Shown in pieces: positions 2,047 through 39,635 of a DNA stretch of 45,166 nucleotides (position 1 is its first letter; the number at the start of each line of letters is the position of its first letter). This DNA comes from a virus. The stretch lies in IMG/VR virus record IMGVR_UViG_3300006099_000022; one strand, 5' to 3'. Below the pieces are notes generated by a model. That model searched no databases and was not told the DNA's origin. It worked only from the letters and a program-made list of their open reading frames with translations. The position numbers were made by a program, and so were the translations under genes.

Positions 2047-2263
2047 TTATAATCTTCGACTTATAAAATTTCCGTCTGGAAAAGTCCATGAAGCTGTTGT
2101 CGAAAATGAAGATGGAAGCTTTACAATATTTTTAGATAAAAATGCCACCAGGGAATCACAATGGAAAAGATTTCAGCACGTCATGAAGCATTTGGCCGGA
2201 GATGATTTTTTCAAAGATGATGTGCAGGAAATAGAGCTAGAAGCACATGGAGAAACATTATGA
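2039..2263 (+). CDS. Small ImmA/IrrE-like protein with a degenerate metal motif (HVMKH instead of HExxH)
   Basis: A 74-aa ORF overlapping the repressor stop. The pattern DGSFTIFLDKN...FQHVMKHLAGDDF resembles short ImmA-type peptidases that follow XRE repressors. This call rests on recall only. Confidence 0.3.
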   Translation: MIDYNLRLIKFPSGKVHEAVVENEDGSFTIFLDKNATRESQWKRFQHVMKHLAGDDFFKDDVQEIELEAHGETL

Positions 2264-3381
2264 GTATAAAAGGGATCACACAGGAATTATTTGTCGGAAA
2301 GACAAAAGTGAGCATTTTGAACCTCATCGGAAATACTTCTACTCTTGCGTACGCTGATTTAAATAAAATTGAATATGATTTTGCCTCTAAATCAATAATT
2401 GGAAGAATGGTATTTTATAAAAAAACCAATGAAAAAATATTGTTCAAATTCAATTCAAGAGCAAATGACCAGATTTTAAAAATGATTGATTTTTTAGCAA
2501 ACAATGTTCCAGTACTTCCTGTTTTAGAAATTGGAGAAAATACAGGAGCGTCTAACAAACTTTTTAAATGCAATCAATGGGAACCTAAACAGGATATTGG
2601 AAGGTATACTAAGGAAAAGCTTAATGAAGCGAGTGAATTATCACAAATAATAAACTATACAACTGATGAAAAAGAATCTAATTTTGATAGCGTAATTCCG
2701 ACAGAATTAAGAGGAACTCTTGATATTTATTTTGAACAAGCTGCAAGATTTTTAATCAAAAAAGGAAAAGCATCTCCTACAATGCTTCAAAGAGAATATA
2801 AAATGGGATTCAATAGAGCCGCGCGAATGATTGATCAATTGGAACAATTTGGAGTTGTTGGAAAAGAGATAGGAAGATGGCCAAGAAAAATATTAATGTC
2901 TTTAGAGGAATTTGAAATTATAATAAAAGATTTTTGTAATACAGGGCAAAAACACGAAGGCAATATTAGAAATGATATATCAAATAAAGAAGAAATACAA
3001 AACAGAATTAATATGTATAATAACAAATATGACTATATGGAAGGCCATGATTTTGAATATTTCTGCGCTGACTTATTAAAACAAAATGGTTTTTCAAGTG
3101 TAGAGGTTACTTCTGGTAGTGGAGATCAAGGCATAGATATAATAGCCTGCAAAGACGGAGTGAAGTATGGAATCCAGTGTAAATGCTATTCCTCTGATAT
3201 TGGAAACAAAGCAGTGCAAGAAGCGTTTTCTGGTGCTAAATTCTATGACTGCCATGTGCCCGCAGTTTTAACCAACAGATTTTTTACAAAATCAGCAGAA
3301 GAACTTGCCAAAAAAAATAATGTTCTGTTATGGGGCAGAGGTTATTTAGATAAATTAATAGAATCAACAAATAATGTCTGA
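2260..3381 (+). CDS. Fusion protein: unknown N-terminal domain, FtsK-gamma winged-helix domain and Mrr-type PD-(D/E)xK nuclease domain
   Basis: DIYFEQAARFLIKKGKASPTMLQREYKMGFNRAARMIDQLEQFGVVG matches the FtsK gamma consensus. FEYFCADLLKQNGF...SGDQGIDIIACKDGVKYGIQCKCY matches the Mrr_cat core. The start overlaps the upstream stop as ATGA. The gene is AT-rich. Confidence 0.8.
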   Translation: MSIKGITQELFVGKTKVSILNLIGNTSTLAYADLNKIEYDFASKSIIGRMVFYKKTNEKILFKFNSRANDQILKMIDFLANNVPVLPVLEIGENTGASNKLFKCNQWEPKQDIGRYTKEKLNEASELSQIINYTTDEKESNFDSVIPTELRGTLDIYFEQAARFLIKKGKASPTMLQREYKMGFNRAARMIDQLEQFGVVGKEIGRWPRKILMSLEEFEIIIKDFCNTGQKHEGNIRNDISNKEEIQNRINMYNNKYDYMEGHDFEYFCADLLKQNGFSSVEVTSGSGDQGIDIIACKDGVKYGIQCKCYSSDIGNKAVQEAFSGAKFYDCHVPAVLTNRFFTKSAEELAKKNNVLLWGRGYLDKLIESTNNV

Positions 3382-4217: not shown

Positions 4218-4436
4218 AGCTCCCTCCGTTTTCTTTTTATTATACTCTGGAAGCTACAACAAATCCATATACACAAAAACGGCCCCTGCGCCAACAGGAA
4301 CCGTCTTTGATAAATCCCATGAGGGGATACAAATGAAAACTCACTGTTTTATTGTATCATCTTCGGGGCAGCCATGCAAGCAAAAATCAATTTTTGCTGG
4401 CTGTTATTTTTATACCCATTTTTAGGAGGATACACG

Positions 4437-5591
4437 ATGGCAAAAAGAAAAAAACATGCAAAACTCCCGAACGGATACGGCAGCATCCGGTATCTGGGAA
4501 AGGGACGGCGGAACCCTTACGCCGTTCATCCGCCTGCAAAGGAAAATCAGGAGACAGGCGCCTACACCTTGCCGCCGGCGCTCTGCTATGTAAATGACTG
4601 GTATGTGGGCTTCGCCGTGCTGACCGCCTATAGGGCCGGCACGTACAAGCCTGGTATGGAGCGTGATATTGAATCTCTGTCCAGTGGTCAGGATAATGAG
4701 ATCGGTGCAGTTGTACAGAAATTACTATCCGACTACAATCAAAGCATGGGACGGCAGGCGACACGGAGCGAAAAGACTTTCGCAGAAATATATCAAGATT
4801 TCTATGCGGACAAGTATGAATCCGGTAAGAAGTTTTCCGATTCCTCCAAATACGCCACCAAAGCGGCCTTTAAAAACTGCTTGTCTCTCCACGATAAACC
4901 ATTTCGCCTTTTGAAAGCGGCCGACCTGCAGAATGTCCTCGATACATGCGGATTGAAGCACGCCAGCCTTGAGCATATTAAAAATCTGCTTAATCAGATG
5001 TACCGTTACGCCGATGGACAGGGACTTTGTGATAAGCGTTACGATCAATTTATTACAATCAAAACAGATGACGACGATGAACACGGCGTACCTTTTACCG
5101 ATGAGGAGTTAAACAAGCTCTGGGAGCATGTAAAGGATCCGATCGTCGAATCAATTCTGATTCTTTGTTATTCCGGCTGGAGGATCACGGAATTCATAAA
5201 TTTAACGGTAAATTTAGAAGAAAAATATTTTTGCGGAGGTATGAAGACCGCCGCCGGAAAAAATCGGATCGTGCCGATCCACCATGCTATTTTTCCGCTC
5301 GTAAAAAGGCGTATATACCAATATAAGTGCTTGGTGGAAGAATCTCCGGTTGAATACAGAAAATGCTTTACAAAGGCCCTTACGGACCTGAACATGGCTG
5401 GTACTCCCCGGCATACACCGCATGACTGCCGACACACCTTCTCCCGATTGTGTGAAAAGTATGGTGTCAGGGAGAATGACCAAAAGCGGATGCTCGGACA
5501 TGCCTTTTCAGATGTTACCAACAAAGTATATGGACACAGAGATCTGGAGAGCCTGCGGAAAGAACTCGAGAAAATTGTGACAAATGTGTGA
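4437..5591 (+). CDS. int: Tyrosine integrase
   Basis: An AGGAGG RBS precedes the ATG at 4437. The C-terminal catalytic region reads HDCRHTF...MLGHAFSDVTNKVYGHRD, giving the R..HxxR..Y signature. Confidence 0.9.
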   Translation: MAKRKKHAKLPNGYGSIRYLGKGRRNPYAVHPPAKENQETGAYTLPPALCYVNDWYVGFAVLTAYRAGTYKPGMERDIESLSSGQDNEIGAVVQKLLSDYNQSMGRQATRSEKTFAEIYQDFYADKYESGKKFSDSSKYATKAAFKNCLSLHDKPFRLLKAADLQNVLDTCGLKHASLEHIKNLLNQMYRYADGQGLCDKRYDQFITIKTDDDDEHGVPFTDEELNKLWEHVKDPIVESILILCYSGWRITEFINLTVNLEEKYFCGGMKTAAGKNRIVPIHHAIFPLVKRRIYQYKCLVEESPVEYRKCFTKALTDLNMAGTPRHTPHDCRHTFSRLCEKYGVRENDQKRMLGHAFSDVTNKVYGHRDLESLRKELEKIVTNV

Positions 5592-7845: not shown

Positions 7846-9009
7846 TTAATCCAGTCTGATCGCAGATATTTCCGTTTCAATCACTGTGACAGGGCCTCTG
7901 CTTAAAAACTCAAGCCATAAATTATCGGTTGTTGGCAAATATTGAAAAAATGAGTATGTAAATTGTGTGTCCATCTCATCGGGGCATTTTATAGCTGTGT
8001 AATAAGACTGCAATGCCATGTTATTATTATCATTACGCACATGTACACACACGGAATTTGGCTGTGAAAATGGGAGTTTGCCATGTGCAACTATCATGTA
8101 TTGCCCCGGCGGCACAGCGATTTTGCGTGTGCCTTGTATCCACTGATCTGCTATAGTGGTAACAGACTCAACTCCCGACCAATATTCAGCCTTGCGTGCC
8201 ATAAAGTCTTTTAAATATTTTACTTGACCAGTTGCATTGTCAATTTCTATGAATTGTAGATAGGGCTGGTTGGGTAAACAGTTCCATTGGAGTCTACGCG
8301 TTATCCCTTCTGTGACGGAGGAACGATATGCATCAACCCAAAGCCAGCCGTCATCTCCCGAATAAAGGCGCATACCATATTGCCCGCTTGGGCTTTGCGT
8401 AGCTATTATGCGCCCTTCGAATGTATCCTGGTCAAAGCCTGGGTTTGCAAGATATTTATTTGTCCATTTGCCATTGGCAGTTTTTTTGCCTACTGTAACG
8501 GCGCCATCGGCATAAAAGGAAAGCATCTGAATAGTACCATCGGGGCGATCAACAATAAATGAGGCTGTTTCTCCATTTCCTTCTTGTTCAACTTTTGTAA
8601 CAACCCTTGAATTATTGTATTGGTAATATGGAAGCTTTTTAGTTAAATCACTATTTAGCGCAGTAACCTGATCCCCGAGTGTCTTACCCATGGCAGCGTC
8701 CAGCGCTGCCACACCAGGATTTGTTGTGAGGGCGTTATTTACCAGGTCGGACTTTTTCAATGCCTGGCCCTCTAACCCTTTGATGACATCAACAGCGCTA
8801 TTCATAAGCTGCGTCACTCGCATAATAGCCTGTTCGCTTTTGTTTAAGTTGGCCGCTTCCAGATACGGCTCCTCATCATCAACATAATTTGTTGGCACAT
8901 ACTCCTCGATCTTCGCCAAAGAATCAGCCAGTGCACGTACCACAGTGTCCGAAATAGGCATCGGGGCTGCGGCGGTATCTTCTGATAATGTTGTTTTTTC
9001 TTTTTCCAT
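7846..9009 (-). CDS. Tail fibre / receptor-binding protein, currently expressed form
   Basis: A 387-aa ORF. The constant N-terminus (aa 1-122) ends in ALNSDL at the repeat, and the variable C-terminus is aa 123-387. It is the last large gene of the tail module. Confidence 0.7.
   Translation of the reverse strand: MEKEKTTLSEDTAAAPMPISDTVVRALADSLAKIEEYVPTNYVDDEEPYLEAANLNKSEQAIMRVTQLMNSAVDVIKGLEGQALKKSDLVNNALTTNPGVAALDAAMGKTLGDQVTALNSDLTKKLPYYQYNNSRVVTKVEQEGNGETASFIVDRPDGTIQMLSFYADGAVTVGKKTANGKWTNKYLANPGFDQDTFEGRIIATQSPSGQYGMRLYSGDDGWLWVDAYRSSVTEGITRRLQWNCLPNQPYLQFIEIDNATGQVKYLKDFMARKAEYWSGVESVTTIADQWIQGTRKIAVPPGQYMIVAHGKLPFSQPNSVCVHVRNDNNNMALQSYYTAIKCPDEMDTQFTYSFFQYLPTTDNLWLEFLSRGPVTVIETEISAIRLD
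8644..8663. repeat. Right arm of the 20-bp inverted repeat, inside the tail-fibre gene (codons 117-122)
   Basis: TAAATCACTATTTAGCGCAG is the reverse complement of 7187-7206. Confidence 0.95.
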
Positions 9010-30687: not shown

Positions 30688-30903
30688 TTAACAATATCTG
30701 TCTTTCATGTTATGTAATAAACAATATGTCCTGTCATTCCAACGCTTTACAGCGATTTCTTTTGTATCATACCATTCTCTCACGCAATCAGCGGTGAAGT
30801 TTCCTTGAATTACATGGTACTTTCCATCTCTTTTTGCAATCTTTGGTTTGCCGCCGTAAAGCGGATTTAGGGTAATATCTAACTTTTTCATCAATACATC
30901 CAC
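30688..30903 (-). CDS. Hypothetical small protein
   Basis: A 71-aa ORF between the TerL and portal genes. Confidence 0.45.
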   Translation of the reverse strand: MDVLMKKLDITLNPLYGGKPKIAKRDGKYHVIQGNFTADCVREWYDTKEIAVKRWNDRTYCLLHNMKDRYC

Positions 30904-32270
30904 CTCAACCGTCTCCGCAGGAACGTATAGCAGTAATACCGTATATCGTCCATTGCGTGGTCATTTTCCTTAATCACGGCGTCTTCTTCATTGTCCTCAT
31001 CCCAACAGTACAGGCCAAACTCATTGATACTATTCTCGCAGCTTTCATGTATCTGAATCATTCCTTTATTCAGGAATGTGGTTACTACTCTGATTCCGTC
31101 TAAAACGTCATTGTCCGCAGCCTTTACCACATACTTGGCATATTTCTTTATGACTTCGATAAAGGAAGCGGCAGACGGGTCTACAATAATAAATTCTACC
31201 TGCCTGTCTCCTATCATTTCGTCCATCATTTTATAATAGGCTTCATCGTCAACCCGCTTCCCTTTCTCTCGGCTGTCATAGTATATCTCCTGCTCCCTTA
31301 TGGACTTTCTCCCGTCAAACGCCCAGAGACCGCAGGAGAACGGGTTTGCCGTTCCGTAGTCCACAGATACGATGTACTCATGTGGCCTTTTCATGCGTTC
31401 CTTGGTGACGTGCTTCTCCTCATCAAACATGGAGTAGACAAGGCCCTCAGCAACACACCAAATCCCCTCTATGTATCGTTTAAAAAATACGCCCACATAC
31501 ATACCACGGTAGCGGGCTTTTATCTTCTCGGAAAGAGAAAGATTATCGTCCATCGTGAAATGGAGATAGAGGATATTTTTCAGCGTCTCCCCTTCGCTTG
31601 TTCTCCTTGCTGATTCTTCTTTTCCGAGAAACCCGGTGGACTTATCAATCCACTTGACTTTGAACCAATGCCGCGGGTTATCCGGGTTGCAGTTAAACCA
31701 GAACTTGGAACCGTCCACCGAACACCGCCCGGTTGCCTGATTTACGAAGGACTCTGGCATAAGGGCTACTTCATCAAAGAACATTCCTGCCAGAGTGATG
31801 CCCTGTATTAAGTCCTGGGAGCGTTCGTCTTTTCCGCCGAATATGTAAAAATAGTTTGTTACTCCGCCTTTGCTGACGATCAGAAGATTGTCTGATCTAT
31901 GATCCTTAACATCAAACTTCCGACTCCGCAACATCAGTTTCAGCCAGAAAAGCACGTTCCGTCGGAAAGAGCCGATGGTCTTCCCGGCCATACCAAAGTT
32001 CTGCTGATTGAAGGTACTCATGGCCCACAGGACATAGGACAGGGACATGGAGAGCGTCTTTCCACTTCGGATTGCTCCGTCTGCTATGATACCATCCATA
32101 TCCTTGACCAGACTTTCAGGGCACCACCATGTGAGGACCTTTTTCTGTTTGATGGAGAAGGGCTGGAAAACAAACCCCTGCTTCTTTGCCTTTTCCTTCA
32201 TGACGGCGGCGCGCTTCATAATGCCTTTGCGGATATTCTCTATCCGCTGTTCAATGTTGTTCAGGCTCAT
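30891..32270 (-). CDS. terL: Terminase large subunit
   Basis: A 459-aa ORF with Walker A DGAIRSGKT and a C-terminal nuclease-type region. Confidence 0.9.
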   Translation of the reverse strand: MSLNNIEQRIENIRKGIMKRAAVMKEKAKKQGFVFQPFSIKQKKVLTWWCPESLVKDMDGIIADGAIRSGKTLSMSLSYVLWAMSTFNQQNFGMAGKTIGSFRRNVLFWLKLMLRSRKFDVKDHRSDNLLIVSKGGVTNYFYIFGGKDERSQDLIQGITLAGMFFDEVALMPESFVNQATGRCSVDGSKFWFNCNPDNPRHWFKVKWIDKSTGFLGKEESARRTSEGETLKNILYLHFTMDDNLSLSEKIKARYRGMYVGVFFKRYIEGIWCVAEGLVYSMFDEEKHVTKERMKRPHEYIVSVDYGTANPFSCGLWAFDGRKSIREQEIYYDSREKGKRVDDEAYYKMMDEMIGDRQVEFIIVDPSAASFIEVIKKYAKYVVKAADNDVLDGIRVVTTFLNKGMIQIHESCENSINEFGLYCWDEDNEEDAVIKENDHAMDDIRYYCYTFLRRRLRWMY

Positions 32271-33169: not shown

Positions 33170-34186
33170 CTATGCAACCCTGCGCCGAATGTTTCGTAAT
33201 GTCTCGGGCGTGGATTGTGCATAATATTGTGCTGTCGTTGCCGGATTTGCATGCCCCATAATTTCTTGTATGCTTCCAAGGTCCGCGCCGGCATTTCTTA
33301 ATTGCATTCCTAACGTTTTCCTAAGCTTATGCGGGTATACGCGGCACTCAATCCCAGCTCTTTTTCCTATAGATTTCAAAAGGCTCCTGATCCCGCAGGT
33401 ATGCATCTGACCATAGGGGGCGCGACTCTGTGGGAACATATATGGGCTTGCTGTTTTTCTTCCCTGCAAATATTCACGCAGGTAATATCTCGAATCTTCG
33501 TCAAGATACAATGTACGATAGCAATCGCTTTTCTCGCTCAAAATGACTATGTCCCCAGTGTTCCATTCTATTTGATCCACCTTGATTTCGATCAGTTCAC
33601 CAACCCTTGCTCCGGTGCTGCGCAAAACCTCTATCAAAGCACGCTCTCTTACATTTTTACAGGCGTCTCGTAAACGGATGATTTCTTCTTTTTGAAAATA
33701 ATCAATTGGCTTTCTTACCATTTTCATCGGATCAATGCTCTCCACTGGATTATCAGCGATCAGTCTGGATTTCCTTAGCCACGCGAAAAAAGCAGATAAG
33801 AACCGGCGTTCATTATTGTATGTAGAAGGCTGTATTTTCTTTTCCCCCTTGTTTTCATACCAGGAAAGATAATTGGATATATCAAATTCAGTCATGGATA
33901 CAAGCGGCTTATGAATAAATGTGAGCAATTTTTTTATGGATAAAAGATAGGCGGCCTTTGTATTATCTTTTATTTTCTTTTTGATAGTAAAAAGCTGTAT
34001 GACATAGCGATTCTTTAAATCTATATCATCTTCCTGGACAGCAGGGAGTGTCGGTATGAGCTGTATGCTGATCGGGAGCATTTCTTTGATTAAAACCTGC
34101 TCTAAAATCTGCAGAGAATCCTTTTCTATGTACATAGACATCTTTACGATTACATTGTTTAAAAAATCTCTTTTTACGGTCTCCAT
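33170..34186 (-). CDS. Second tyrosine recombinase (XerC/D-like)
   Basis: A 338-aa ORF with STGARVGEL (Arg), HKLRKT (HxxR) and GHANPATTAQYY (His..Tyr). The gene is AT-rich. Confidence 0.85.
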   Translation of the reverse strand: METVKRDFLNNVIVKMSMYIEKDSLQILEQVLIKEMLPISIQLIPTLPAVQEDDIDLKNRYVIQLFTIKKKIKDNTKAAYLLSIKKLLTFIHKPLVSMTEFDISNYLSWYENKGEKKIQPSTYNNERRFLSAFFAWLRKSRLIADNPVESIDPMKMVRKPIDYFQKEEIIRLRDACKNVRERALIEVLRSTGARVGELIEIKVDQIEWNTGDIVILSEKSDCYRTLYLDEDSRYYLREYLQGRKTASPYMFPQSRAPYGQMHTCGIRSLLKSIGKRAGIECRVYPHKLRKTLGMQLRNAGADLGSIQEIMGHANPATTAQYYAQSTPETLRNIRRRVA

Positions 34187-34790: not shown

Positions 34791-35417
34791 TCATATTTCT
34801 GTGCAGAATCCGGCCCACTGCTCTGCCATTGCCTTTGCAATGCCGGGAAATGTCTTTGACCGGATCTTCGGATCCCTCTCTTTCCTTCCCGGGAATCGCC
34901 TGTAATTTCCGTGCGCATCCTTACCGCCGCCATTTATATAGGGTTCATAATCCGACATGATTTCCGTTGCAAAGAGCGGAGGCAGGCCCTTCAGCCACAG
35001 GCACGTCCGTTTACTGTATGCATGTCCGAAATCATAGGGCTGAATCACCTGGTCACAAGGCGGCAGCCCGATCAACTTCATCGGTGTGGGATTTTCAATC
35101 GCAATTCGGGGGCAATCCGCATTATAAAACTGCATGAAAAACGCTTTTGCCTCCATCGCTTTCTGGTAACGTTCTGCCACAATCTCCCCGTTTACTCTCA
35201 TTCTTACGGCGCCGGCTCTGGTCATATATGTACAGGGCGGGAAGGCAATCAGCATATCCCATTTTATTTTCAGCAGCGGCGTCACGTCCTGCTGCAAATG
35301 CCATTCCGGATGGCCGCCGGAACAGGGCTCTATGTCACAGGAGTACGCCTCATGTCCCAGTCTGCGCAGCTCCTTCGTTACCGCCTGGGATTCCTCACAT
35401 GCCACGAGTACCCGCAT
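34791..35417 (-). CDS. C5-cytosine DNA methyltransferase-like protein (short form)
   Basis: The start MRVLVACEESQ is preceded by a GAGGAG RBS. The motifs are FPPCTY (a PC motif) and IAIENP (an ENV-like motif). No obvious target-recognition domain is seen. Confidence 0.55.
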   Translation of the reverse strand: MRVLVACEESQAVTKELRRLGHEAYSCDIEPCSGGHPEWHLQQDVTPLLKIKWDMLIAFPPCTYMTRAGAVRMRVNGEIVAERYQKAMEAKAFFMQFYNADCPRIAIENPTPMKLIGLPPCDQVIQPYDFGHAYSKRTCLWLKGLPPLFATEIMSDYEPYINGGGKDAHGNYRRFPGRKERDPKIRSKTFPGIAKAMAEQWAGFCTEI

Positions 35418-35418
35418 C

Positions 35419-35568
35419 TTACTCCTCACACTCAACTACGCCGAAATGATACCCGCACGCATCACACAGGGCTGTTCCGTCGCTGTAGTATCTCGTGATC
35501 TCTGCTCCGCATTTCGGGCAGTAGGAAATGTCATCATTCTCTGTTATTCCGCTTATGAATCCGTACAT
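35419..35568 (-). CDS. Zinc-ribbon small protein (49 aa, below the ORF-track cutoff)
   Basis: The translation is MYGFISGITENDDISYCPKCGAEITRYYSDGTALCDACGYHFGVVECEE. Confidence 0.5.
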   Translation of the reverse strand: MYGFISGITENDDISYCPKCGAEITRYYSDGTALCDACGYHFGVVECEE

Positions 35569-35593
35569 GGTGTACCTCTGTTTAAATTCCTAC

Positions 35594-35977
35594 TTATGGT
35601 TTCGTCTCTACTGTGACCGGAAACTCTGCATGGAAGAACATCTTGTAATGATATGGGTCCGTATGCGTTCCGGTGATGTCCTCTACTACGTACATTGTGT
35701 ATTCATTCAGGTAAATATAATTCTTTTTATACTCATTTGGCCCTGTCTTCACCGTACAGACCAATTCTCCGGCGGAATCATTTGAAATTGACATGTACCC
35801 CTCCGCCTCCAGAACCACCATATCCGTTCTGGCATTGTATACCGTAATCCGCCTCTCACACTCAAAATAATCGGCCTGTTGAGAAATGTTTGCATTTACC
35901 TTGTCCGCCTCGCTGCAGCCTCCCATAAAGACGGTGATGCATACCATCAGTAAAAATAGTTTGATTTTCTTTTTCAT
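35594..35977 (-). CDS. Lipoprotein
   Basis: The signal peptide MKKKIKLFLLMVCITVFMGGC carries the lipobox FMGGC. Confidence 0.75.
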   Translation of the reverse strand: MKKKIKLFLLMVCITVFMGGCSEADKVNANISQQADYFECERRITVYNARTDMVVLEAEGYMSISNDSAGELVCTVKTGPNEYKKNYIYLNEYTMYVVEDITGTHTDPYHYKMFFHAEFPVTVETKP

Positions 35978-36027
35978 TTCTTTATCCTTTCTCGATTTGC
36001 TACATTTACTTATTGCCTATTTGATAC

Positions 36028-36435
36028 TCATAATTCTTTCAATGCGGCTTCGGCTTCTTCCTGTGTTGCAAACCATTTCTTTCCAAAATCTGCAATATCC
36101 ATATCAATTTTAAGAAACTCATATTCTTTCATTTTGCTCGAAAGCCTTGCATATATTCCGTCTGTGTAAATTACAAAGCTGTCAACACAAAAAGTAAGGA
36201 TTTTGCCAAAGGAAAAAGAATGCACTGTATCCCCCACCGCACAGGGAAGTTTCGGCAGTTTTCCTTGTTCCTCTAAGTCCTCGTATTCTGCCAGCTTGAA
36301 CAGCGCTTTTCTTATGTCTTCGCAATCGGCTTTTCCGCAACCTGTGCAGAAATTACTACAACTTATTCCGTTTCCCCTACTATCAACCGAAACATGATTT
36401 TTTCCGTCATATGTATATCTTTTTGTTAGCCTATC
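36028..36435 (-). CDS. Hypothetical Cys-containing protein
   Basis: The start MDRLTKRY overlaps the radical-SAM stop by 8 nt. It contains a CSNFCTGCGKADC cluster. Confidence 0.5.
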   Translation of the reverse strand, partial: DRLTKRYTYDGKNHVSVDSRGNGISCSNFCTGCGKADCEDIRKALFKLAEYEDLEEQGKLPKLPCAVGDTVHSFSFGKILTFCVDSFVIYTDGIYARLSSKMKEYEFLKIDMDIADFGKKWFATQEEAEAALKEL

Positions 36436-37354
36436 CATAGTTCTCCTTCCTCCGGCAATACTCCCTCCACGTCTCCGACCGGTAACTCCCGCCATATATG
36501 TACCGCTGGGCAAACTCCTGCTGCTTTGCATTCGGCCGGATCCCCAACCGGTCATTCCGCTCGGCCTGCGCGTACAGATTGATCGTCTTATACCCTTTCA
36601 GCGCCTCCACCCGCTCCGCTGCATCTTCCAGGTCCGTTGTTACAAGCAGGTATATAAAAATCCGATATGGTTTAATCCCCCGCTTCATCAGCAGCTCTAT
36701 GGTACGCCTGACCGGTTCGATCTGTCCTTTCTGGTCGCAGCTAAAACGGATAAACCGGATCCATTTCAACCTTGCAAGCAGGTCCGCCACGCTCCCGTCT
36801 ACCAGCCGCGCGTCCATTCCCTGATTCAGGTCGATTTTATATCCAGCGCCGGCCAGGCTCTCCAACTGCGCAAGCCCAAAATCGGACGCCAGTATGTTGT
36901 TATCCATCAGCACTAACTTATTCGTGTCTGGCCGCACTACCTGCTGCCAGGTCCTGTACGGTCGTATCCCTCCTTCCTTTTCCGGTACGATGCACCATCT
37001 GCAATGATTCGGGCAGCCCCTTGTAAGATACCCAACCGCATAATCACACTCCGGATAGAGGCTGTAATCCGGATACATGGCGTCAATCTCCGGAGCGAGC
37101 TCCTGGTTTATCGGCAGATCCCGATAACCTGTCCCGCCCCGGATTGCCCCCTCCGGAAGATAGGGATCGGTGGGCGTAAAATCAAACACCTTGCTGCTGT
37201 AGACCCGGTCATAGTGATACAATGGATTCCACCATTCCACCGTATCCCCCGCTGCCTTGTGCCACGCCGACAGTTTCATGAGTGCCAGGTTCGGGAATGT
37301 TTTATTTTTAAAATAATCCTTTTCTGCGTCGTGCAGTCCAATCTTCATCGTCAC
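36431..37354 (-). CDS. Radical SAM enzyme of unknown specificity
   Basis: A 307-aa ORF with CPNHCRWC (the CxxxCxxC motif). The start overlaps the Dam stop as ATGA. Confidence 0.8.
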   Translation of the reverse strand: MTMKIGLHDAEKDYFKNKTFPNLALMKLSAWHKAAGDTVEWWNPLYHYDRVYSSKVFDFTPTDPYLPEGAIRGGTGYRDLPINQELAPEIDAMYPDYSLYPECDYAVGYLTRGCPNHCRWCIVPEKEGGIRPYRTWQQVVRPDTNKLVLMDNNILASDFGLAQLESLAGAGYKIDLNQGMDARLVDGSVADLLARLKWIRFIRFSCDQKGQIEPVRRTIELLMKRGIKPYRIFIYLLVTTDLEDAAERVEALKGYKTINLYAQAERNDRLGIRPNAKQQEFAQRYIYGGSYRSETWREYCRRKENYG

Positions 37355-38136
37355 TTAAATAGGCTCATCTGCCCTACCGGCTCAAAATTCATCCACAGTA
37401 TCTCCTGCTTTTTGGTCCCTGAATGCGTATAACAGCCCACTTCCTCCCGATGCCAGCCCCGCAGCCGCTCCCTGTACATCTCGCTCTCATATCCGGACAA
37501 TACCACCGGCCCGCGGTGCGACAACAGCACGTCCAACAGCTCCTCGTGATCCCGATCGGTCATTTCAAACGCATACTGCTTTCCGTGCCTCGTCCCCAGC
37601 AGGTATGGCGGATCGGCGTAAATCAGGACATTCGGGTAATTAAACCGCCCAATCAGTTCCACCGCAGTCCGGTTCTCGATCTGGACACCGCGGAGCCGTT
37701 CTGCTGCCTCCACGATCCTCCCCGGCAGAGTGCTCCAGTTCCACGAAGCATACGAGCGCTCCCTTCCCTGCACGTCGTTCTTCCAGCCTACTTTCTCCCC
37801 GTTTGTCCGGTATCCGTGTCCCATATTCAGACGGATAAAGAAATTCACGGCCCGCTCCAGGCTGTCCTCCGGCTCCGCCGCAAAAGCGGCCTCATACACC
37901 TCCCTTGCATACGGCGTATAATAGATTTCATGGGCCAGTCTTTCCGGATCCTTTTTGATCCATTCGAACAGGTTCACCACATTCCCGTCCAGATCGTTCA
38001 CCGTCTCGATGCGGGAGCGCGGCTTGTTAAACAATACCGCCCCGCTCCCGAAGAACGGCTCCAGATAGCTGTGGTGCTCGGGAAAACGGCTGATAATCCA
38101 GTCTGCAAGGCTCCATTTGCTCCCCGGATACCGCAT
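37351..38136 (-). CDS. dam: N6-adenine DNA methyltransferase (Dam / D12 class)
   Basis: The motifs are MRYPGSKW...EPFFGSGAV (SAM binding) and DPPY (catalytic). The start at 38136 is coupled to the upstream stop as TGATG. Confidence 0.85.
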   Translation of the reverse strand: MRYPGSKWSLADWIISRFPEHHSYLEPFFGSGAVLFNKPRSRIETVNDLDGNVVNLFEWIKKDPERLAHEIYYTPYAREVYEAAFAAEPEDSLERAVNFFIRLNMGHGYRTNGEKVGWKNDVQGRERSYASWNWSTLPGRIVEAAERLRGVQIENRTAVELIGRFNYPNVLIYADPPYLLGTRHGKQYAFEMTDRDHEELLDVLLSHRGPVVLSGYESEMYRERLRGWHREEVGCYTHSGTKKQEILWMNFEPVGQMSLFK

Positions 38137-38354
38137 CAGCGCATGCATGCCTTCCGCCTCCCCCGGCTGCACCCGTCCTCCGGCCGCAGATCCAGTACAT
38201 CAAGCCCGGCCGTGGACCGGCACCAATAAATTCCCGTCGTCTCCTCGCAGGCCAGGTATTCACACTCCCGGCACTGCACAATCTCCTGACGCCTTTCCAG
38301 CAGTTTTGCTATCCTTCTCGCATACGCCGCCAGGCGCTTTCTCATTCCCTGCAT
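38136..38354 (-). CDS. Hypothetical Cys-containing small protein
   Basis: The start MQGMRKRL lies 5 nt after GGAGAG. It contains CRECEYLACEE...WC. Confidence 0.45.
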   Translation of the reverse strand: MQGMRKRLAAYARRIAKLLERRQEIVQCRECEYLACEETTGIYWCRSTAGLDVLDLRPEDGCSRGRRKACMR

Positions 38355-38490: not shown

Positions 38491-38783
38491 GACGCCTCCT
38501 CCTGCTGCCTCTGTTTCTCTTTCTCGATCTCTGCGGTCAGCAGCTCCACCCAGCCGATCGTCTCCTGCACACCGCCCGGCAGACGGATCACGGCAAAGCA
38601 GGGATACTTTGCAACGACCGTTCCGACCCGCTCTACCCCATTCCGCCGCGTCATGGGCGATCCTACGTCACAGGCCTTTAACGTCCTGCATACAATCTTG
38701 TCCCCGATCTGCACGCGCTTACGCATACGCTCCACATCTTCCTGGGTAATCCCTTGCTTTGAGTCAGGCCTTCCTGCTTTCAC
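38487..38783 (-). CDS. Veg-like small protein
   Basis: A GTG start at 38783 follows GGAGGGGAG. The stretch ERVGTVVAKYPCFAVIRLPGGVQETIGWVELLTAEIE resembles the Veg / DUF1021 pattern. This call rests on recall only. Confidence 0.3.
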   Translation of the reverse strand: MKAGRPDSKQGITQEDVERMRKRVQIGDKIVCRTLKACDVGSPMTRRNGVERVGTVVAKYPCFAVIRLPGGVQETIGWVELLTAEIEKEKQRQQEEAS

Positions 38784-39561
38784 CTGGCTCCCCTCCTTTC
38801 GACCGCTGCCGGATATGTTCATACACGGCGCTCTCGTAGTCGTTTGTGCGCTCCTCAAAGTTCTTGAACCGGTTCTGGCTCTTTCCCTTCCGGGCGCCCG
38901 GCCGCTCTGTCTCCGCTTCGTCGTCCTTAAGCGGGAACACGTCCTTCCAGCGCCTCCGGATCGACTGCTCTAAGATCGCCGTTTTCACTGCCGTGTCTCC
39001 CGGCGCCAGCTCCTCCAGCCGCTTAAAGAGCATTTCCAGGCTCGCACTCGTAAGCGGCTTCCCCAGCTGCTCCATGCTCGCTATGTACCTCTCAAGCGTA
39101 TCCTGCGGGATCGCTTCGGCCGGTTTTGGGGCGCACTTTTCTGGTATTGCGTTAGCAATACTCTTTTCTGTCTTAGTCTTTTGTCTTAGTCTATCTATGT
39201 CTGCACTTTGTACTGTACTTTGTACTTCTTTTGAACCTCCCTTTGTACTGTCGTTTGTACCCTCTTTTGTACTGTATTTTGTTGGGTACAAAATACAGTA
39301 CCGGGTACATTCCCCCCTCTTTTTTGAGGGGATAAAGTCGATCAGGCCGAGCTGCTTTAACTCCGACCTCGCGTTCATAAACGCCTTCTCACTCACATTC
39401 ATCATGCTGCTGATGCTTACGTTGGTCCTAGAGAACCAGTCCGACCAACTAGATTTGTTGTTTATCATCAGTAAGGTATGATAAAGCAACTGTCCGTTAT
39501 TGGAAACCCGGCTGCACTGTACTCTTTCGTAAAATGCATTCAGCAACTCCAGATAGCTCAT
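38764..39561 (-). CDS. Replication initiation / replisome-organizer protein (DnaD-like)
   Basis: The N-terminus has a winged-helix-like region and the C-terminus reads ...RRRWKDVFPL. The linker coding region contains iterons. Confidence 0.55.
   Translation of the reverse strand: MSYLELLNAFYERVQCSRVSNNGQLLYHTLLMINNKSSWSDWFSRTNVSISSMMNVSEKAFMNARSELKQLGLIDFIPSKKRGECTRYCILYPTKYSTKEGTNDSTKGGSKEVQSTVQSADIDRLRQKTKTEKSIANAIPEKCAPKPAEAIPQDTLERYIASMEQLGKPLTSASLEMLFKRLEELAPGDTAVKTAILEQSIRRRWKDVFPLKDDEAETERPGARKGKSQNRFKNFEERTNDYESAVYEHIRQRSKGGEPGESRKA
39207..39301. repeat. Iteron cluster plus 14-bp-stem inverted repeat inside the replication gene (candidate origin)
   Basis: TTTGTAC occurs at 39207, 39219, 39242, 39254 and 39266, giving spacings of 12, 23, 12 and 12 bp. 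GTACTGTATTTTGT (39269-39282) pairs with ACAAAATACAGTAC (39288-39301). Confidence 0.6.
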
Positions 39562-39635
39562 GCAGGCCCTCACCTGCCTTTCTGTTTAGCCCCTCCCTGC
39601 CCGCGTGACAGGAAGGGGCGTGTCGGTTTCCGGCA

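What the first reader, a model, noticed from the sequence alone, without database searches (positions are those of the whole stretch)
34791..38136. Early-operon DNA-modification cluster: Dam, radical SAM and a C5-MTase-like gene
A coupled gene string encodes, in order, a Dam-type N6-adenine methyltransferase (DPPY), a 307-aa radical SAM enzyme (CPNHCRWC) and a Cys-cluster protein. A lipoprotein, a zinc ribbon and a short C5-cytosine-MTase-like protein (FPPC, IENP) with no evident target-recognition domain follow. Start and stop codons overlap between Dam, the radical SAM gene and the next ORF. A radical SAM gene embedded between two DNA methyltransferase-type genes in a phage early operon suggests a DNA hypermodification or anti-restriction function beyond simple methylation. 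Its N-terminal 110 aa (FPNLALMKLSAWHKAAGDTVEW) is not a domain I can assign.
Basis: partly seen in the sequence, partly recalled or inferred. Interest (0 to 1): 0.65.

Follow-up and report, generated by a model that had tools for sequence, protein, structure and literature searches.

The report
Phage accessory genes with orphan radical-SAM enzyme
A mouse-gut prophage carries, side by side but not as one pathway, a Dam methylase, a minimal cytosine-methylase-like protein and a radical SAM enzyme; that enzyme belongs to a very large, uncharacterised family of mobile elements that usually sits next to DNA-modification genes.

Summary
Dam is a genuine D12-class N6-adenine methyltransferase. The 208-aa "C5-like" protein has no Pfam hit, but its predicted fold matches only C5 DNA methyltransferases. 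It belongs to PHROG 757, found from P-SSP7 to Pf inoviruses.

The radical SAM protein has an invariant CX3CX2C motif. It belongs to PHROG 9298 (at least 8,000 90%-identity clusters; 835 50%-identity clusters at E<=1e-30), which nobody has characterised. It is not QueE, NrdG, viperin or SPL. Its N-terminal 100 aa has no sequence match but is predicted to be a flavodoxin/Rossmann-like half-domain. The overall architecture resembles cobalamin-dependent radical SAM methylases (TokK, CysS) and methylthiotransferases. It lacks the auxiliary-cluster cysteines and the TRAM domain.

The three genes are not a conserved pathway. Among 64 related genome loci, the Dam homologue co-occurs in 8 and the C5-like homologue in 3. 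However, genes directly flanking the radical SAM gene are enriched for DNA methyltransferases of three unrelated classes, PAPS-reductase-like proteins and Mom (28/118 at ±1). Four genes away the only listed case is one C5 methylase (1/104).

Best reading: a mosaic counter-restriction segment. The radical SAM enzyme is a stand-alone module, probably directed at nucleic acid. Its function is unproven.

The parts
37351..38148 (-). Orphan Dam-family (D12 class, alpha) N6-adenine DNA methyltransferase, 265 aa from the ATG (ORF extends to a GTG at 38172); DPPY motif
   Evidence: PF02086 E 2.4e-22, 80 bits vs cut-off 22; PHROG 56 E 2.4e-70; PADLOC MTase_II PDLC03244 E 6e-85; E. coli Dam 2g1p E 4e-7 and DpnM 2dpm. 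TIGR00571 scores 58 bits, below its cut-off of 115, so GATC specificity is not established.
36431..37348 (-). Stand-alone radical SAM enzyme (305 aa from the conserved ATG; 307 aa from the GTG at 37354). N-terminal flavodoxin/Rossmann-like half-domain (about residues 1-100), GGTGY loop, CX3CX2C at C114/C118/C121, partial TIM barrel
   Evidence: PHROG 9298 E 2e-73; PF04055 23.8 bits, below GA 29.5, but hit in 34/35 family members; the three Cys are invariant in 94 sequences; AF2 pLDDT 78; Foldseek TokK TMq 0.58, CysS 0.53, SuiB E 1.4e-3; viral MtaB-like MTTase TMq 0.58, E 2.5e-6.
36028..36438 (-). 136-aa protein with N-terminal C-x3-C-x2-C-x4-C motif and a KLAEYEDLEEQG linker; its start overlaps the radical SAM stop by 8 nt; function unknown
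   Evidence: No Pfam, PHROG, NCBIfam or PADLOC hit. Homologue near the radical SAM gene in only 2/64 loci. Phage hits cover either the C-terminal or the N-terminal half only. Contigs from other runs break or skip 162-167 nt inside it.
35594..35977 (-). Predicted lipoprotein (signal peptide plus FMGGC lipobox), Phage_VG64 family
   Evidence: PF25682 E 6e-41; PHROG 478 E 3.5e-36, labelled 'RDF', which sits oddly with a lipoprotein signal; sequence read.
35419..35568 (-). 49-aa zinc-ribbon protein (CPKC...CDAC)
   Evidence: PF13240 E 9e-6.
34791..35417 (-). Minimal C5-DNA-methyltransferase-fold protein, 208 aa. Motif IV PPCT, motif VI ENP; no FxGxG motif I (ACEES instead); no target-recognition domain
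   Evidence: PHROG 757 'DNA methyltransferase' E 1.5e-56. No Pfam, NCBIfam or PDB sequence hit. AF2 pLDDT 79. The top 37 Foldseek PDB hits are all C5 methyltransferases: DNMT1 E 6.6e-5, DNMT3B, DIM2, M.HaeIII 9.9e-4, DNMT2. 161 phage records hold a homologue.
38764..39573 (-). Context: replication initiator (O-like/DnaD-like), the upstream boundary of the accessory segment
   Evidence: PHROG 19658, 678 and 186.
33170..34186 (-). Context: XerC/D-like tyrosine recombinase between the accessory genes and the terminase (30891-32270), the downstream boundary
   Evidence: PF00589 E 3e-33 and PF13495; terminase PHROG 2; same arrangement in a Lacrimispora prophage.

Best explanation
The string is the accessory segment that temperate phages keep between the replication and packaging modules. 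It is a mosaic of individually exchangeable genes, not one pathway. Three of the genes are SAM-using enzymes or enzyme-like proteins that act on their own. (1) An orphan Dam-family methyltransferase makes m6A on phage DNA; the family is shown, the target sequence is inferred. (2) A minimal C5-methyltransferase-fold protein of PHROG 757 keeps the catalytic Pro-Cys and ENx motifs but has no recognition domain; the fold is shown, activity is inferred. (3) A single-cluster radical SAM enzyme of PHROG 9298 reductively cleaves SAM at its CX3CX2C [4Fe-4S] cluster. Its N-terminal flavodoxin-like half-domain is used to hold a cofactor (possibly a corrinoid) or the substrate. The family is carried by phages of bacteria and archaea and by conjugative elements of anaerobes. 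Its gene lies directly beside DNA methyltransferases of any class, PAPS-reductase-like proteins or Mom. The most likely job is therefore a self-contained modification of the element's own nucleic acid, or of a nucleotide precursor, that helps it escape host restriction. This last step is inference (about 0.35-0.4 on its own). The mosaic, non-pathway nature of the string is what the data show.
For: Family assignments. The radical SAM cluster motif is invariant in 94 and in 35 sequences. Family size and spread: more than 8,000 90%-clusters; 835 50%-clusters at E<=1e-30; phages of Clostridium tetani, Bacteroides, Phocaeicola, Oscillospiraceae, Methanomassiliicoccales and Marinitoga; conjugative-element neighbours such as T4SS coupling protein, TraG, RepA_N, DUF6017 and topoisomerase. 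Mosaicism: the radical SAM protein is 50-79% identical to the window's in 64 genome loci (50 distinct 90% clusters among the 61 analysed), while no neighbour cluster is shared by more than 9 loci. Dam is present in 8/64 and C5-like in 3/64; 2/80 and 1/80 in viral contigs. Neighbour enrichment: of 118 proteins at ±1, 9 are C5, 6 N6_N4 and 3 D12 methylases, 8 PAPS_reduct and 2 Mom. Of 104 proteins at ±4, 1 is a C5 methylase. Fisher p = 6e-5 for methylases. In an independent, more divergent viral set, C5 methylase is again the commonest flanking family (7), with 3 other methylases and 3 PAPS_reduct among 133 proteins. Architecture: Foldseek matches to TokK, CysS and a viral MTTase; MiaB and RimO are the best PDB sequence matches around RGCxxxCxxCxVPxxxG. 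The C5-like family occurs alone in Pf inoviruses, Microviridae and P-SSP7.
Against: There is no direct evidence for any substrate. Neighbour counts use a crude ORF caller; the Pfam tables list only the 25 commonest families; loci are phylogenetically related, so the p-values are optimistic. Most loci (over half) have no modification gene next to the radical SAM gene, for example the Lacrimispora prophage with a 79%-identical protein. Flanking genes also include anti-signalling proteins (Sequestin, Tad3), so the shared theme may be counter-defence in general rather than DNA chemistry. Foldseek E-values to PDB are weak (>=1e-3), and the cluster loop of the model has low confidence. No B12-binding Pfam hit was found.
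Confidence: 0.55

Rival explanations
1. One reading: Dam, the radical SAM enzyme and the C5-like protein form one DNA hypermodification pathway in which the radical SAM enzyme elaborates a base that the methyltransferases have marked.
For: The genes are co-directional and translationally coupled. All three use SAM or have a SAM-enzyme fold. The best whole-chain structural analogues, TokK and CysS, are cobalamin-dependent radical SAM methylases. Methyltransferases are the commonest flanking genes.
Against: The partners are not conserved: Dam in 8/64 and C5-like in 3/64 genome loci, 2/80 and 1/80 in viral loci. Flanking methylases come from three unrelated classes that make different products. 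Many loci have no methylase nearby. Three unrelated genes separate the radical SAM gene from the C5-like gene here.
Confidence: 0.07
2. The radical SAM enzyme acts on something other than DNA: a host tRNA, rRNA, protein, defence-signalling nucleotide or metabolite. It would serve host takeover or counter-defence, and its position beside methylases would only reflect a shared counter-defence gene neighbourhood.
For: The closest sequence and fold relatives (MiaB, RimO, MtaB, TokK, CysS, SuiB) act on tRNA, proteins, peptides or small molecules. Sequestin and Tad3 anti-signalling genes also occur next to it. Only SPL and M6 gp53 are known DNA-directed radical SAM enzymes (PMC8989533).
Against: Flanking genes are most often DNA-modification enzymes, and the enrichment falls off sharply within four genes. 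One family member appears fused to a ParB-like DNA-binding/nuclease domain (P0362), though this could be a read-through artefact.
Confidence: 0.28
3. The radical SAM gene is a prophage-borne defence or lysogenic-conversion gene that benefits the host.
For: Prophages often carry defence genes. This one has an Mrr-like nuclease gene next to its integrase.
Against: No PADLOC model matches. The gene lies inside the co-directional lytic early/middle string, coupled to Dam, not in the moron positions near the integrase, repressor or lysis genes. It also occurs in non-integrating and conjugative contexts.
Confidence: 0.07
4. The radical SAM protein is a divergent copy of a known enzyme: QueE, the NrdG activase, viperin, spore photoproduct lyase, or a MiaB/RimO methylthiotransferase.
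For: There are weak profile hits around the cluster motif to MiaB and RimO (E 0.009-0.02) and to SPL (E 0.6); PF20903 SPL scores E 0.096 in 2 of 35 members.
Against: No NCBIfam or Pfam model for these enzymes is matched. There are no conserved N-terminal cysteines for an auxiliary cluster and no TRAM domain. No NrdD or 7-deazaguanine genes were seen among the window proteins scanned. QueE and NrdG rank low in the fold search.
Confidence: 0.03

Closest known systems
Cobalamin-dependent (class B) radical SAM methylases, e.g. TokK (PDB 7kdy) and CysS (PDB 9n1d)
   Same: An N-terminal Rossmann/flavodoxin-like domain is followed by a radical SAM partial TIM barrel. These are the best whole-chain fold matches (TMq 0.58 and 0.53). 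A corrinoid-binding protein (1y80) also appears among the hits.
   Different: The window protein is half the size (305 vs about 630-660 aa). Its N-terminal domain is only about 100 aa. It has no C-terminal domain and no PF02310 hit in any of 35 members. Foldseek E-values are >=0.014. Cobalamin binding is untested.
Methylthiotransferases MiaB, RimO and MtaB (PDB 7mjz, 4jc0; a Megaviridae MtaB-like model)
   Same: They share the signature RGCxxxCxxCxVPxxxG and are the best PDB sequence hits (E 0.009-0.02). They have the same two-domain front end (viral MTTase TMq 0.58, E 2.5e-6).
   Different: The window family has no three-cysteine auxiliary-cluster motif in the N-terminal domain and no TRAM domain, so methylthiolation chemistry is not expected.
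Phage M6 gp53, an SPL-like radical SAM isomerase of thymidine hypermodification (PMC8989533)
   Same: It is a phage-encoded radical SAM enzyme that acts on DNA to evade restriction.
   Different: gp53 is SPL-like and works within a conserved cluster (5-hmdU synthesis, 5-HMUDK kinase, aGPT-Pplase, PLP decarboxylase). None of these was found here, and the window protein's similarity to SPL is marginal.
C5 DNA methyltransferases (PF00145; DNMT3, M.HaeIII) and the phage family PHROG 757 (P-SSP7 gp12, Pf 'dcm')
   Same: The predicted fold matches only C5 methyltransferases. The catalytic Pro-Cys (motif IV) and ENx (motif VI) are invariant, as are acidic residues at the motif II/III positions.
   Different: There is no PF00145 hit. 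Motif I FxGxG is replaced by an invariant ACE-x-S. There is no target-recognition domain, and the protein is 208 aa vs 327 aa or more. No experimental evidence of activity was found in the literature searched.
Orphan phage Dam methyltransferases (E. coli Dam, DpnM, T4 Dam type)
   Same: D12-class fold, DPPY motif, orphan (no cognate nuclease nearby).
   Different: It scores below the TIGR00571 and PRK10904 cut-offs, so GATC specificity cannot be assumed.

Membership tests
Radical SAM superfamily | CX3CX2C motif binding the [4Fe-4S] cluster | tested here: met
   C114, C118 and C121 are invariant in 94 sequences and in 35 divergent ones.
Radical SAM superfamily | Match to PF04055 above the gathering score | tested here: inconclusive
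   23.8 bits vs cut-off 29.5 for the window protein. 34/35 members hit at E<1, best 2.3e-6. Some relatives carry a precomputed PF04055 assignment.
Radical SAM superfamily | Partial TIM-barrel core fold | tested here: met
   AF2 model with pLDDT 78. Foldseek probability 0.95-1.00 to SuiB, LAM, TokK, CysS, LipA, NifB, HydG and BlsE.
Class B cobalamin-dependent radical SAM methylases | N-terminal cobalamin-binding domain (PF02310) | tested here: not met
   No PF02310 hit in 35 members at E<=1. The N-terminal profile finds nothing relevant in PDB. Only fold-level resemblance exists.
Class B cobalamin-dependent radical SAM methylases | Binds cobalamin; produces SAH as well as 5'-deoxyadenosine | not testable with these tools
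   Needs purified protein.
Methylthiotransferases (MiaB/RimO/MtaB) | Three conserved Cys in the N-terminal UPF0004 domain for the auxiliary cluster | tested here: not met
   There is no conserved Cys before residue 103 in the alignments.
Methylthiotransferases (MiaB/RimO/MtaB) | C-terminal TRAM domain | tested here: not met
   No Pfam hit, and the protein ends about 185 aa after the cluster motif.
QueE / NrdG / viperin / SPL | Match to the family's Pfam or NCBIfam model | tested here: not met
   Only TIGR04013 at E 0.006, over 32 residues. SPL PF20903 scores E 0.096 in 2/35 members.
D12-class (Dam) N6-adenine DNA methyltransferases | PF02086 above cut-off and the DPPY catalytic motif | tested here: met
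   80.3 bits vs cut-off 22; IYADPPY read; E. coli Dam E 4e-7.
D12-class (Dam) N6-adenine DNA methyltransferases | GATC specificity (equivalog level) | tested here: not met
   TIGR00571 58 bits vs 114.85; NF008152 32 bits vs 441. GATC O/E is 0.97 in the window, which is uninformative.
C5 cytosine DNA methyltransferases (PF00145) | Match to PF00145 | tested here: not met
   No hit at E<=0.01. A family profile finds no PDB methyltransferase.
C5 cytosine DNA methyltransferases (PF00145) | Catalytic motif IV (Pro-Cys) and motif VI (ENV) | tested here: met
   PPCT and ENP are invariant in 16 divergent sequences.
C5 cytosine DNA methyltransferases (PF00145) | Motif I FxGxG SAM-binding loop | tested here: not met
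   It is replaced by an invariant A-C-E-x-S.
C5 cytosine DNA methyltransferases (PF00145) | Target-recognition domain between motifs VIII and IX | tested here: not met
   The protein is 208 aa in all, and the model shows a single domain.
C5 cytosine DNA methyltransferases (PF00145) | Catalytic-domain fold | tested here: met
   The top 37 Foldseek PDB hits are all C5 methyltransferases, E down to 6.6e-5, probability about 1.0.
PHROG 9298 / PHROG 757 | Full-length match to the family profile | tested here: met
   E 2.1e-73 over residues 3-262; E 1.5e-56 over residues 3-210.

The most novel reading that the evidence does not exclude
PHROG 9298 enzymes are a new class of DNA-directed radical SAM enzymes, possibly corrinoid-dependent C-methylases. 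They would install a non-canonical mark on the DNA of phages and conjugative elements of anaerobes, for example by extending or adding carbon substituents that ordinary methyltransferases cannot make. This would give broad, sequence-independent protection from restriction.
Probability: 0.1. Interest if true: 0.85.

Novelty: new member of a known kind. Interest (0 to 1): 0.45.

Why it matters
The only radical SAM enzymes known to act on DNA are spore photoproduct lyase and phage M6 gp53 (as stated in PMC8989533). The family seen here is far more abundant. It comprises thousands of sequence clusters in gut Clostridia, Bacteroidales, C. difficile and C. botulinum prophages, archaeal viruses and conjugative elements, yet it has no assigned function. 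Its tight, class-independent association with DNA-modification genes makes it a concrete candidate for an undiscovered modification or counter-restriction chemistry. Cultured lysogens are available for testing. The minimal C5-methyltransferase-fold family (PHROG 757) is widely annotated as a methylase, but no experimental support turned up in the searches run here. It lacks both the canonical SAM loop and a recognition domain, so it also deserves a direct test.

Tried and rejected
- Single-sequence and profile searches of the radical SAM protein, its N-terminal domain and the C5-like protein against PDB sequences gave nothing significant beyond the cluster motif.
- NCBIfam and PADLOC gave no informative hit for the radical SAM, Cys-rich, lipoprotein or C5-like proteins.
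- A megablast of 15 kb of the window against phage genomes found no match.
- A search for a conserved partner gene by BLAST clustering of ±5 neighbours found none shared by more than 9 of 61 loci.
- Regex motif detection of methylases under-counted relative to Pfam and was not used for the statistics.
- Long 'fusion' proteins from the representative library were examined as Rosetta-stone evidence. Most are chimeras with an ABC transporter, VirD4/TraG or topoisomerase, or read-throughs into the next gene. Only P0362 (radical SAM plus a ParB-like domain) is a possible true fusion, and it could not be verified.
- Laying contigs from public runs showed even, low coverage and no expression contrast. 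These runs are kept as assembled contigs only, so no modification signal can be read.
- Tetranucleotide palindrome statistics do not reveal Dam's target.
- Nine literature searches found no paper characterising either family (papers read).

Full report
**What is in the window.** In transcription order they are:
- Dam, 37351-38148. The likely start is an ATG behind a GGAGG; the mechanical ORF reaches a GTG at 38172.
- A radical SAM protein, 36431-37348.
- A 136-aa protein with a C-x3-C-x2-C-x4-C motif, 36028-36438.
- A lipoprotein, 35594-35977.
- A 49-aa zinc ribbon, 35419-35568.
- A 208-aa C5-methylase-like protein, 34791-35417.

The radical SAM stop and the next start overlap by 8 nt (ATGGATAG). 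Dam's TGA is either overlapped by the GTG (GTGA) or followed after 2 nt by the conserved ATG. The zinc-ribbon stop and the C5-like ATG are 1 nt apart.

The string lies downstream of Erf-like, NinB-like and replication-initiator genes. It lies upstream of a XerC/D-like recombinase, a small HTH protein and the large terminase. An integrase, an Mrr-like nuclease gene and a choline-binding lysin lie at the left end. The element is a temperate tailed phage. Public runs that hold the sequence are mouse-gut metagenomes. Terminator-like sites in the region are no more frequent than in shuffles, so one transcription unit is plausible but not shown.

**Dam.** The protein passes PF02086 (80 bits against a cut-off of 22). 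It matches PHROG 56 and a PADLOC type II methyltransferase model at E 6e-85. It aligns with E. coli Dam and DpnM and has DPPY. It stays below the equivalog cut-offs, so its target sequence is open. GATC is neither avoided nor enriched in the window (O/E 0.97). No nuclease partner is adjacent, so it is an orphan phage methylase.

**The C5-like protein.**
- No Pfam, NCBIfam or PADLOC model and no PDB sequence matches it, even with a family profile. It fits PHROG 757 'DNA methyltransferase' end to end (E 1.5e-56).
- The family is very large: 8,000 candidates were scored, all at E<=0.001. It is present in 161 phage records, among them Prochlorococcus phage P-SSP7 gp12, Pelagibacter, Cellulophaga, Vibrio and Arthrobacter phages, a Methanosarcina virus, Pf inoviruses (there called dcm) and a Microviridae genome.
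- An alignment of 16 divergent members keeps PPCT (motif IV), ENP (motif VI) and acidic residues at the motif II and III positions. The glycine-rich motif I is replaced by an invariant A-C-E-x-S. There is no room for a recognition domain.
- An AlphaFold model (pLDDT 79, pTM 0.78) finds only C5 DNA methyltransferases at the top of the PDB: DNMT1 at E 6.6e-5, DNMT3A/B, DIM2, M.HaeIII and DNMT2.
Membership in PF00145 and methyltransferase activity are not established. The papers I could search only repeat the annotation.

**The radical SAM protein: identity.** It scores below the Pfam gathering threshold (23.8 against 29.5 bits). However, C114, C118 and C121 are invariant in 94 and in 35 aligned sequences, and 34 of 35 members touch PF04055. 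It matches PHROG 9298 at E 2e-73.

The family is huge and anonymous.
- Two searches each saturated at 8,000 candidates; 7,994 and 8,000 of these scored E<=0.001. Every name on record is just 'radical SAM protein'.
- A profile search of 1.8 billion representatives gives 835 50%-identity clusters at E<=1e-30 and 4,490 at E<=1e-3.
- Members occur in Lachnospiraceae, Oscillospiraceae, Clostridium tetani, C. botulinum and C. difficile, in Bacteroides and Phocaeicola phages, in Methanomassiliicoccales viruses and in a Marinitoga virus.

The protein is not QueE, NrdG, viperin or SPL. No NCBIfam or Pfam model for these fires. They rank low in fold searches.

**The radical SAM protein: architecture.**
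- The best PDB sequence matches, restricted to RGCxxxCxxCxVPxxxG, are MiaB and RimO (E 0.009-0.02).
- The AlphaFold model (pLDDT 78, with the cluster loop at low confidence as expected without the metal) gives its best whole-chain superpositions on the cobalamin-dependent methylases TokK (TMq 0.58) and CysS (0.53). Its best E-value is on SuiB (1.4e-3). Among viral models the best named match is an MtaB-like methylthiotransferase (TMq 0.58, E 2.5e-6).
They are confidently predicted (pLDDT 80-97) as a four-stranded flavodoxin/Rossmann-like half-domain. This sits where class B enzymes bind cobalamin and methylthiotransferases bind their auxiliary cluster.
- There are no conserved N-terminal cysteines and no TRAM domain, so it is not a methylthiotransferase. 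There is no PF02310 hit, so class B membership is unproven.

**Is it a cluster?** I fetched 64 genome loci that encode relatives 50-79% identical to the window protein.
- By tblastn, homologues of the window's Dam occur within 8 kb in 8 of them. The C5-like homologue occurs in 3, and the Cys protein and the zinc ribbon in 2 each.
- BLAST clustering of the five genes on each side found no neighbour family shared by more than 9 of the 61 loci where the radical SAM ORF could be called. Those 61 loci hold 50 distinct radical SAM clusters at 90% identity.
- In 80 viral contigs with more distant relatives, Dam occurs in 2 and C5-like in 1.
- A Lacrimispora prophage with a 79%-identical enzyme has no methylase nearby. 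It has the same recombinase-terminase layout and a Sequestin gene two genes downstream.
- Contigs from other runs break or carry a 162-167-nt difference inside the Cys-protein gene just after the radical SAM gene, as expected at a mosaic joint.

**What the neighbours do say.** I scanned the immediately flanking proteins against Pfam.
- Of 118 proteins at positions -1 and +1, 9 are C5 methylases, 6 N6_N4 methylases, 3 D12 methylases, 8 PAPS-reductase-like proteins and 2 Mom-family proteins. Representatives were confirmed.
- Of 104 proteins at positions -4 and +4, one is a C5 methylase and no other modification family appears among those listed. Fisher's test gives p = 6e-5 for methylases, or 1e-3 if two unlisted singletons are assumed.
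- In the independent viral set, C5 methylase is again the commonest flanking family: 7 of 133, plus one each of D12, Dam (PF05869) and N6_N4, 3 PAPS-reductase-like proteins and one Tad3.
- Some loci are conjugative elements rather than phages, with coupling protein, TraG, RepA_N, DUF6017, topoisomerase or an M23/lysozyme protein nearby.

Caveats apply. My ORF caller is crude, the Pfam summary lists only the top 25 families, and the loci are not phylogenetically independent.

Even so, the pattern is clear. The gene keeps company with DNA-modifying enzymes of unrelated classes, in mobile elements of anaerobic bacteria and archaea. That argues for a shared purpose, protecting incoming or replicating element DNA from restriction, rather than a shared pathway.

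**Most likely mechanism.**
- Shown: one [4Fe-4S]/SAM site; an MTTase/class-B-like two-domain architecture; a stand-alone gene; restriction to mobile elements; a neighbourhood of modification genes.
- Inferred: the enzyme generates a 5'-deoxyadenosyl radical and uses it, perhaps with a corrinoid held by the N-terminal half-domain, to modify the element's DNA or a nucleotide precursor, independently of Dam and the C5-like protein. I give this DNA-directed reading about 0.35-0.4.
- The main rival, at about 0.3, is a non-DNA target (tRNA, protein, or a signalling or metabolic small molecule) used for takeover or counter-defence. That is what every close structural relative does, and it would fit the occasional Sequestin or Tad3 neighbours.
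- A defence or moron role is unlikely: there is no PADLOC hit and the gene sits in the lytic string. Identity with a known enzyme is very unlikely.

**Comparison with the known, and verdict.** The only DNA-directed radical SAM enzymes I could document are SPL and M6 gp53, which works inside a conserved 5-hmdU-based cluster (PMC8989533). Nothing of that cluster is present among the proteins scanned. Each gene here belongs to a family that is already catalogued, so the window is a new member of known kinds. What is open is the function of two very abundant families.

I rate the finding moderately interesting (0.45). The proposed cluster dissolves. What remains is a well-defined, testable candidate for new phage nucleic-acid chemistry, and cultured lysogens are available.

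Noticed in passing
window 2260-3381 (+) and 4374-5591 (+): A protein with an FtsK-gamma DNA-binding domain and an Mrr-type restriction-endonuclease domain lies next to the prophage integrase. It may be a prophage-borne type IV (modification-dependent) restriction gene, or it may be host flank.
   Followed up: no
window 33170-34186 (-): A second tyrosine recombinase (XerC/D-like, PF00589 plus PF13495) sits between the accessory genes and the terminase. The same placement occurs in a Lacrimispora prophage (L160) and homologues occur in 5/64 loci, so it is probably not the integrase.
   Followed up: partly
window 36028-36438 (-), especially 36060-36294: Contigs from other metagenome runs break here, or skip 162-167 nt (36060 to 36223/36228). 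Phage homologues match only one half of this Cys-rich protein. It looks like a recombination joint inside the gene that follows the radical SAM gene.
   Followed up: partly
P0362 (812 aa; from the representative library): A radical SAM family member continues into a Cys-rich stretch and a ParB-like domain (IIAGHHRFEAAKRL). If genuine, this fusion would point to DNA as the substrate. It may be a read-through of adjacent genes. Other long 'fusions' (P0367, P0383, P0435, P0446, P0457) look like chimeras.
   Followed up: partly
L160 9222-9503; L161, L162 (Lacrimispora-type prophages); one viral locus: Known anti-signalling genes occur beside the radical SAM gene: Sequestin (PF21825) two to three genes downstream, and Tad3 immediately adjacent. 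The region is a general counter-defence hot spot.
   Followed up: no
window 35594-35977 (-): The lipoprotein belongs to PF25682 (Phage_VG64). Its PHROG (478) is labelled 'recombination directionality factor', which is hard to reconcile with a signal peptide and lipobox. This is a possible mis-annotation in the library, and a superinfection-exclusion role is more plausible.
   Followed up: no
whole window: CTAG (O/E 0.43) and CGCG (O/E 0.60) are under-represented relative to a second-order Markov expectation. GATC, GGCC and CCGG are not.
   Followed up: no
L002 (Phocaeicola phage PV4-TP1), several L0xx loci: PAPS-reductase-like (PP-loop) genes are the second most frequent direct neighbour of the radical SAM gene: 8/118 in genome loci and 3/133 in viral loci. 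The function of these phage proteins is also unknown.
   Followed up: partly
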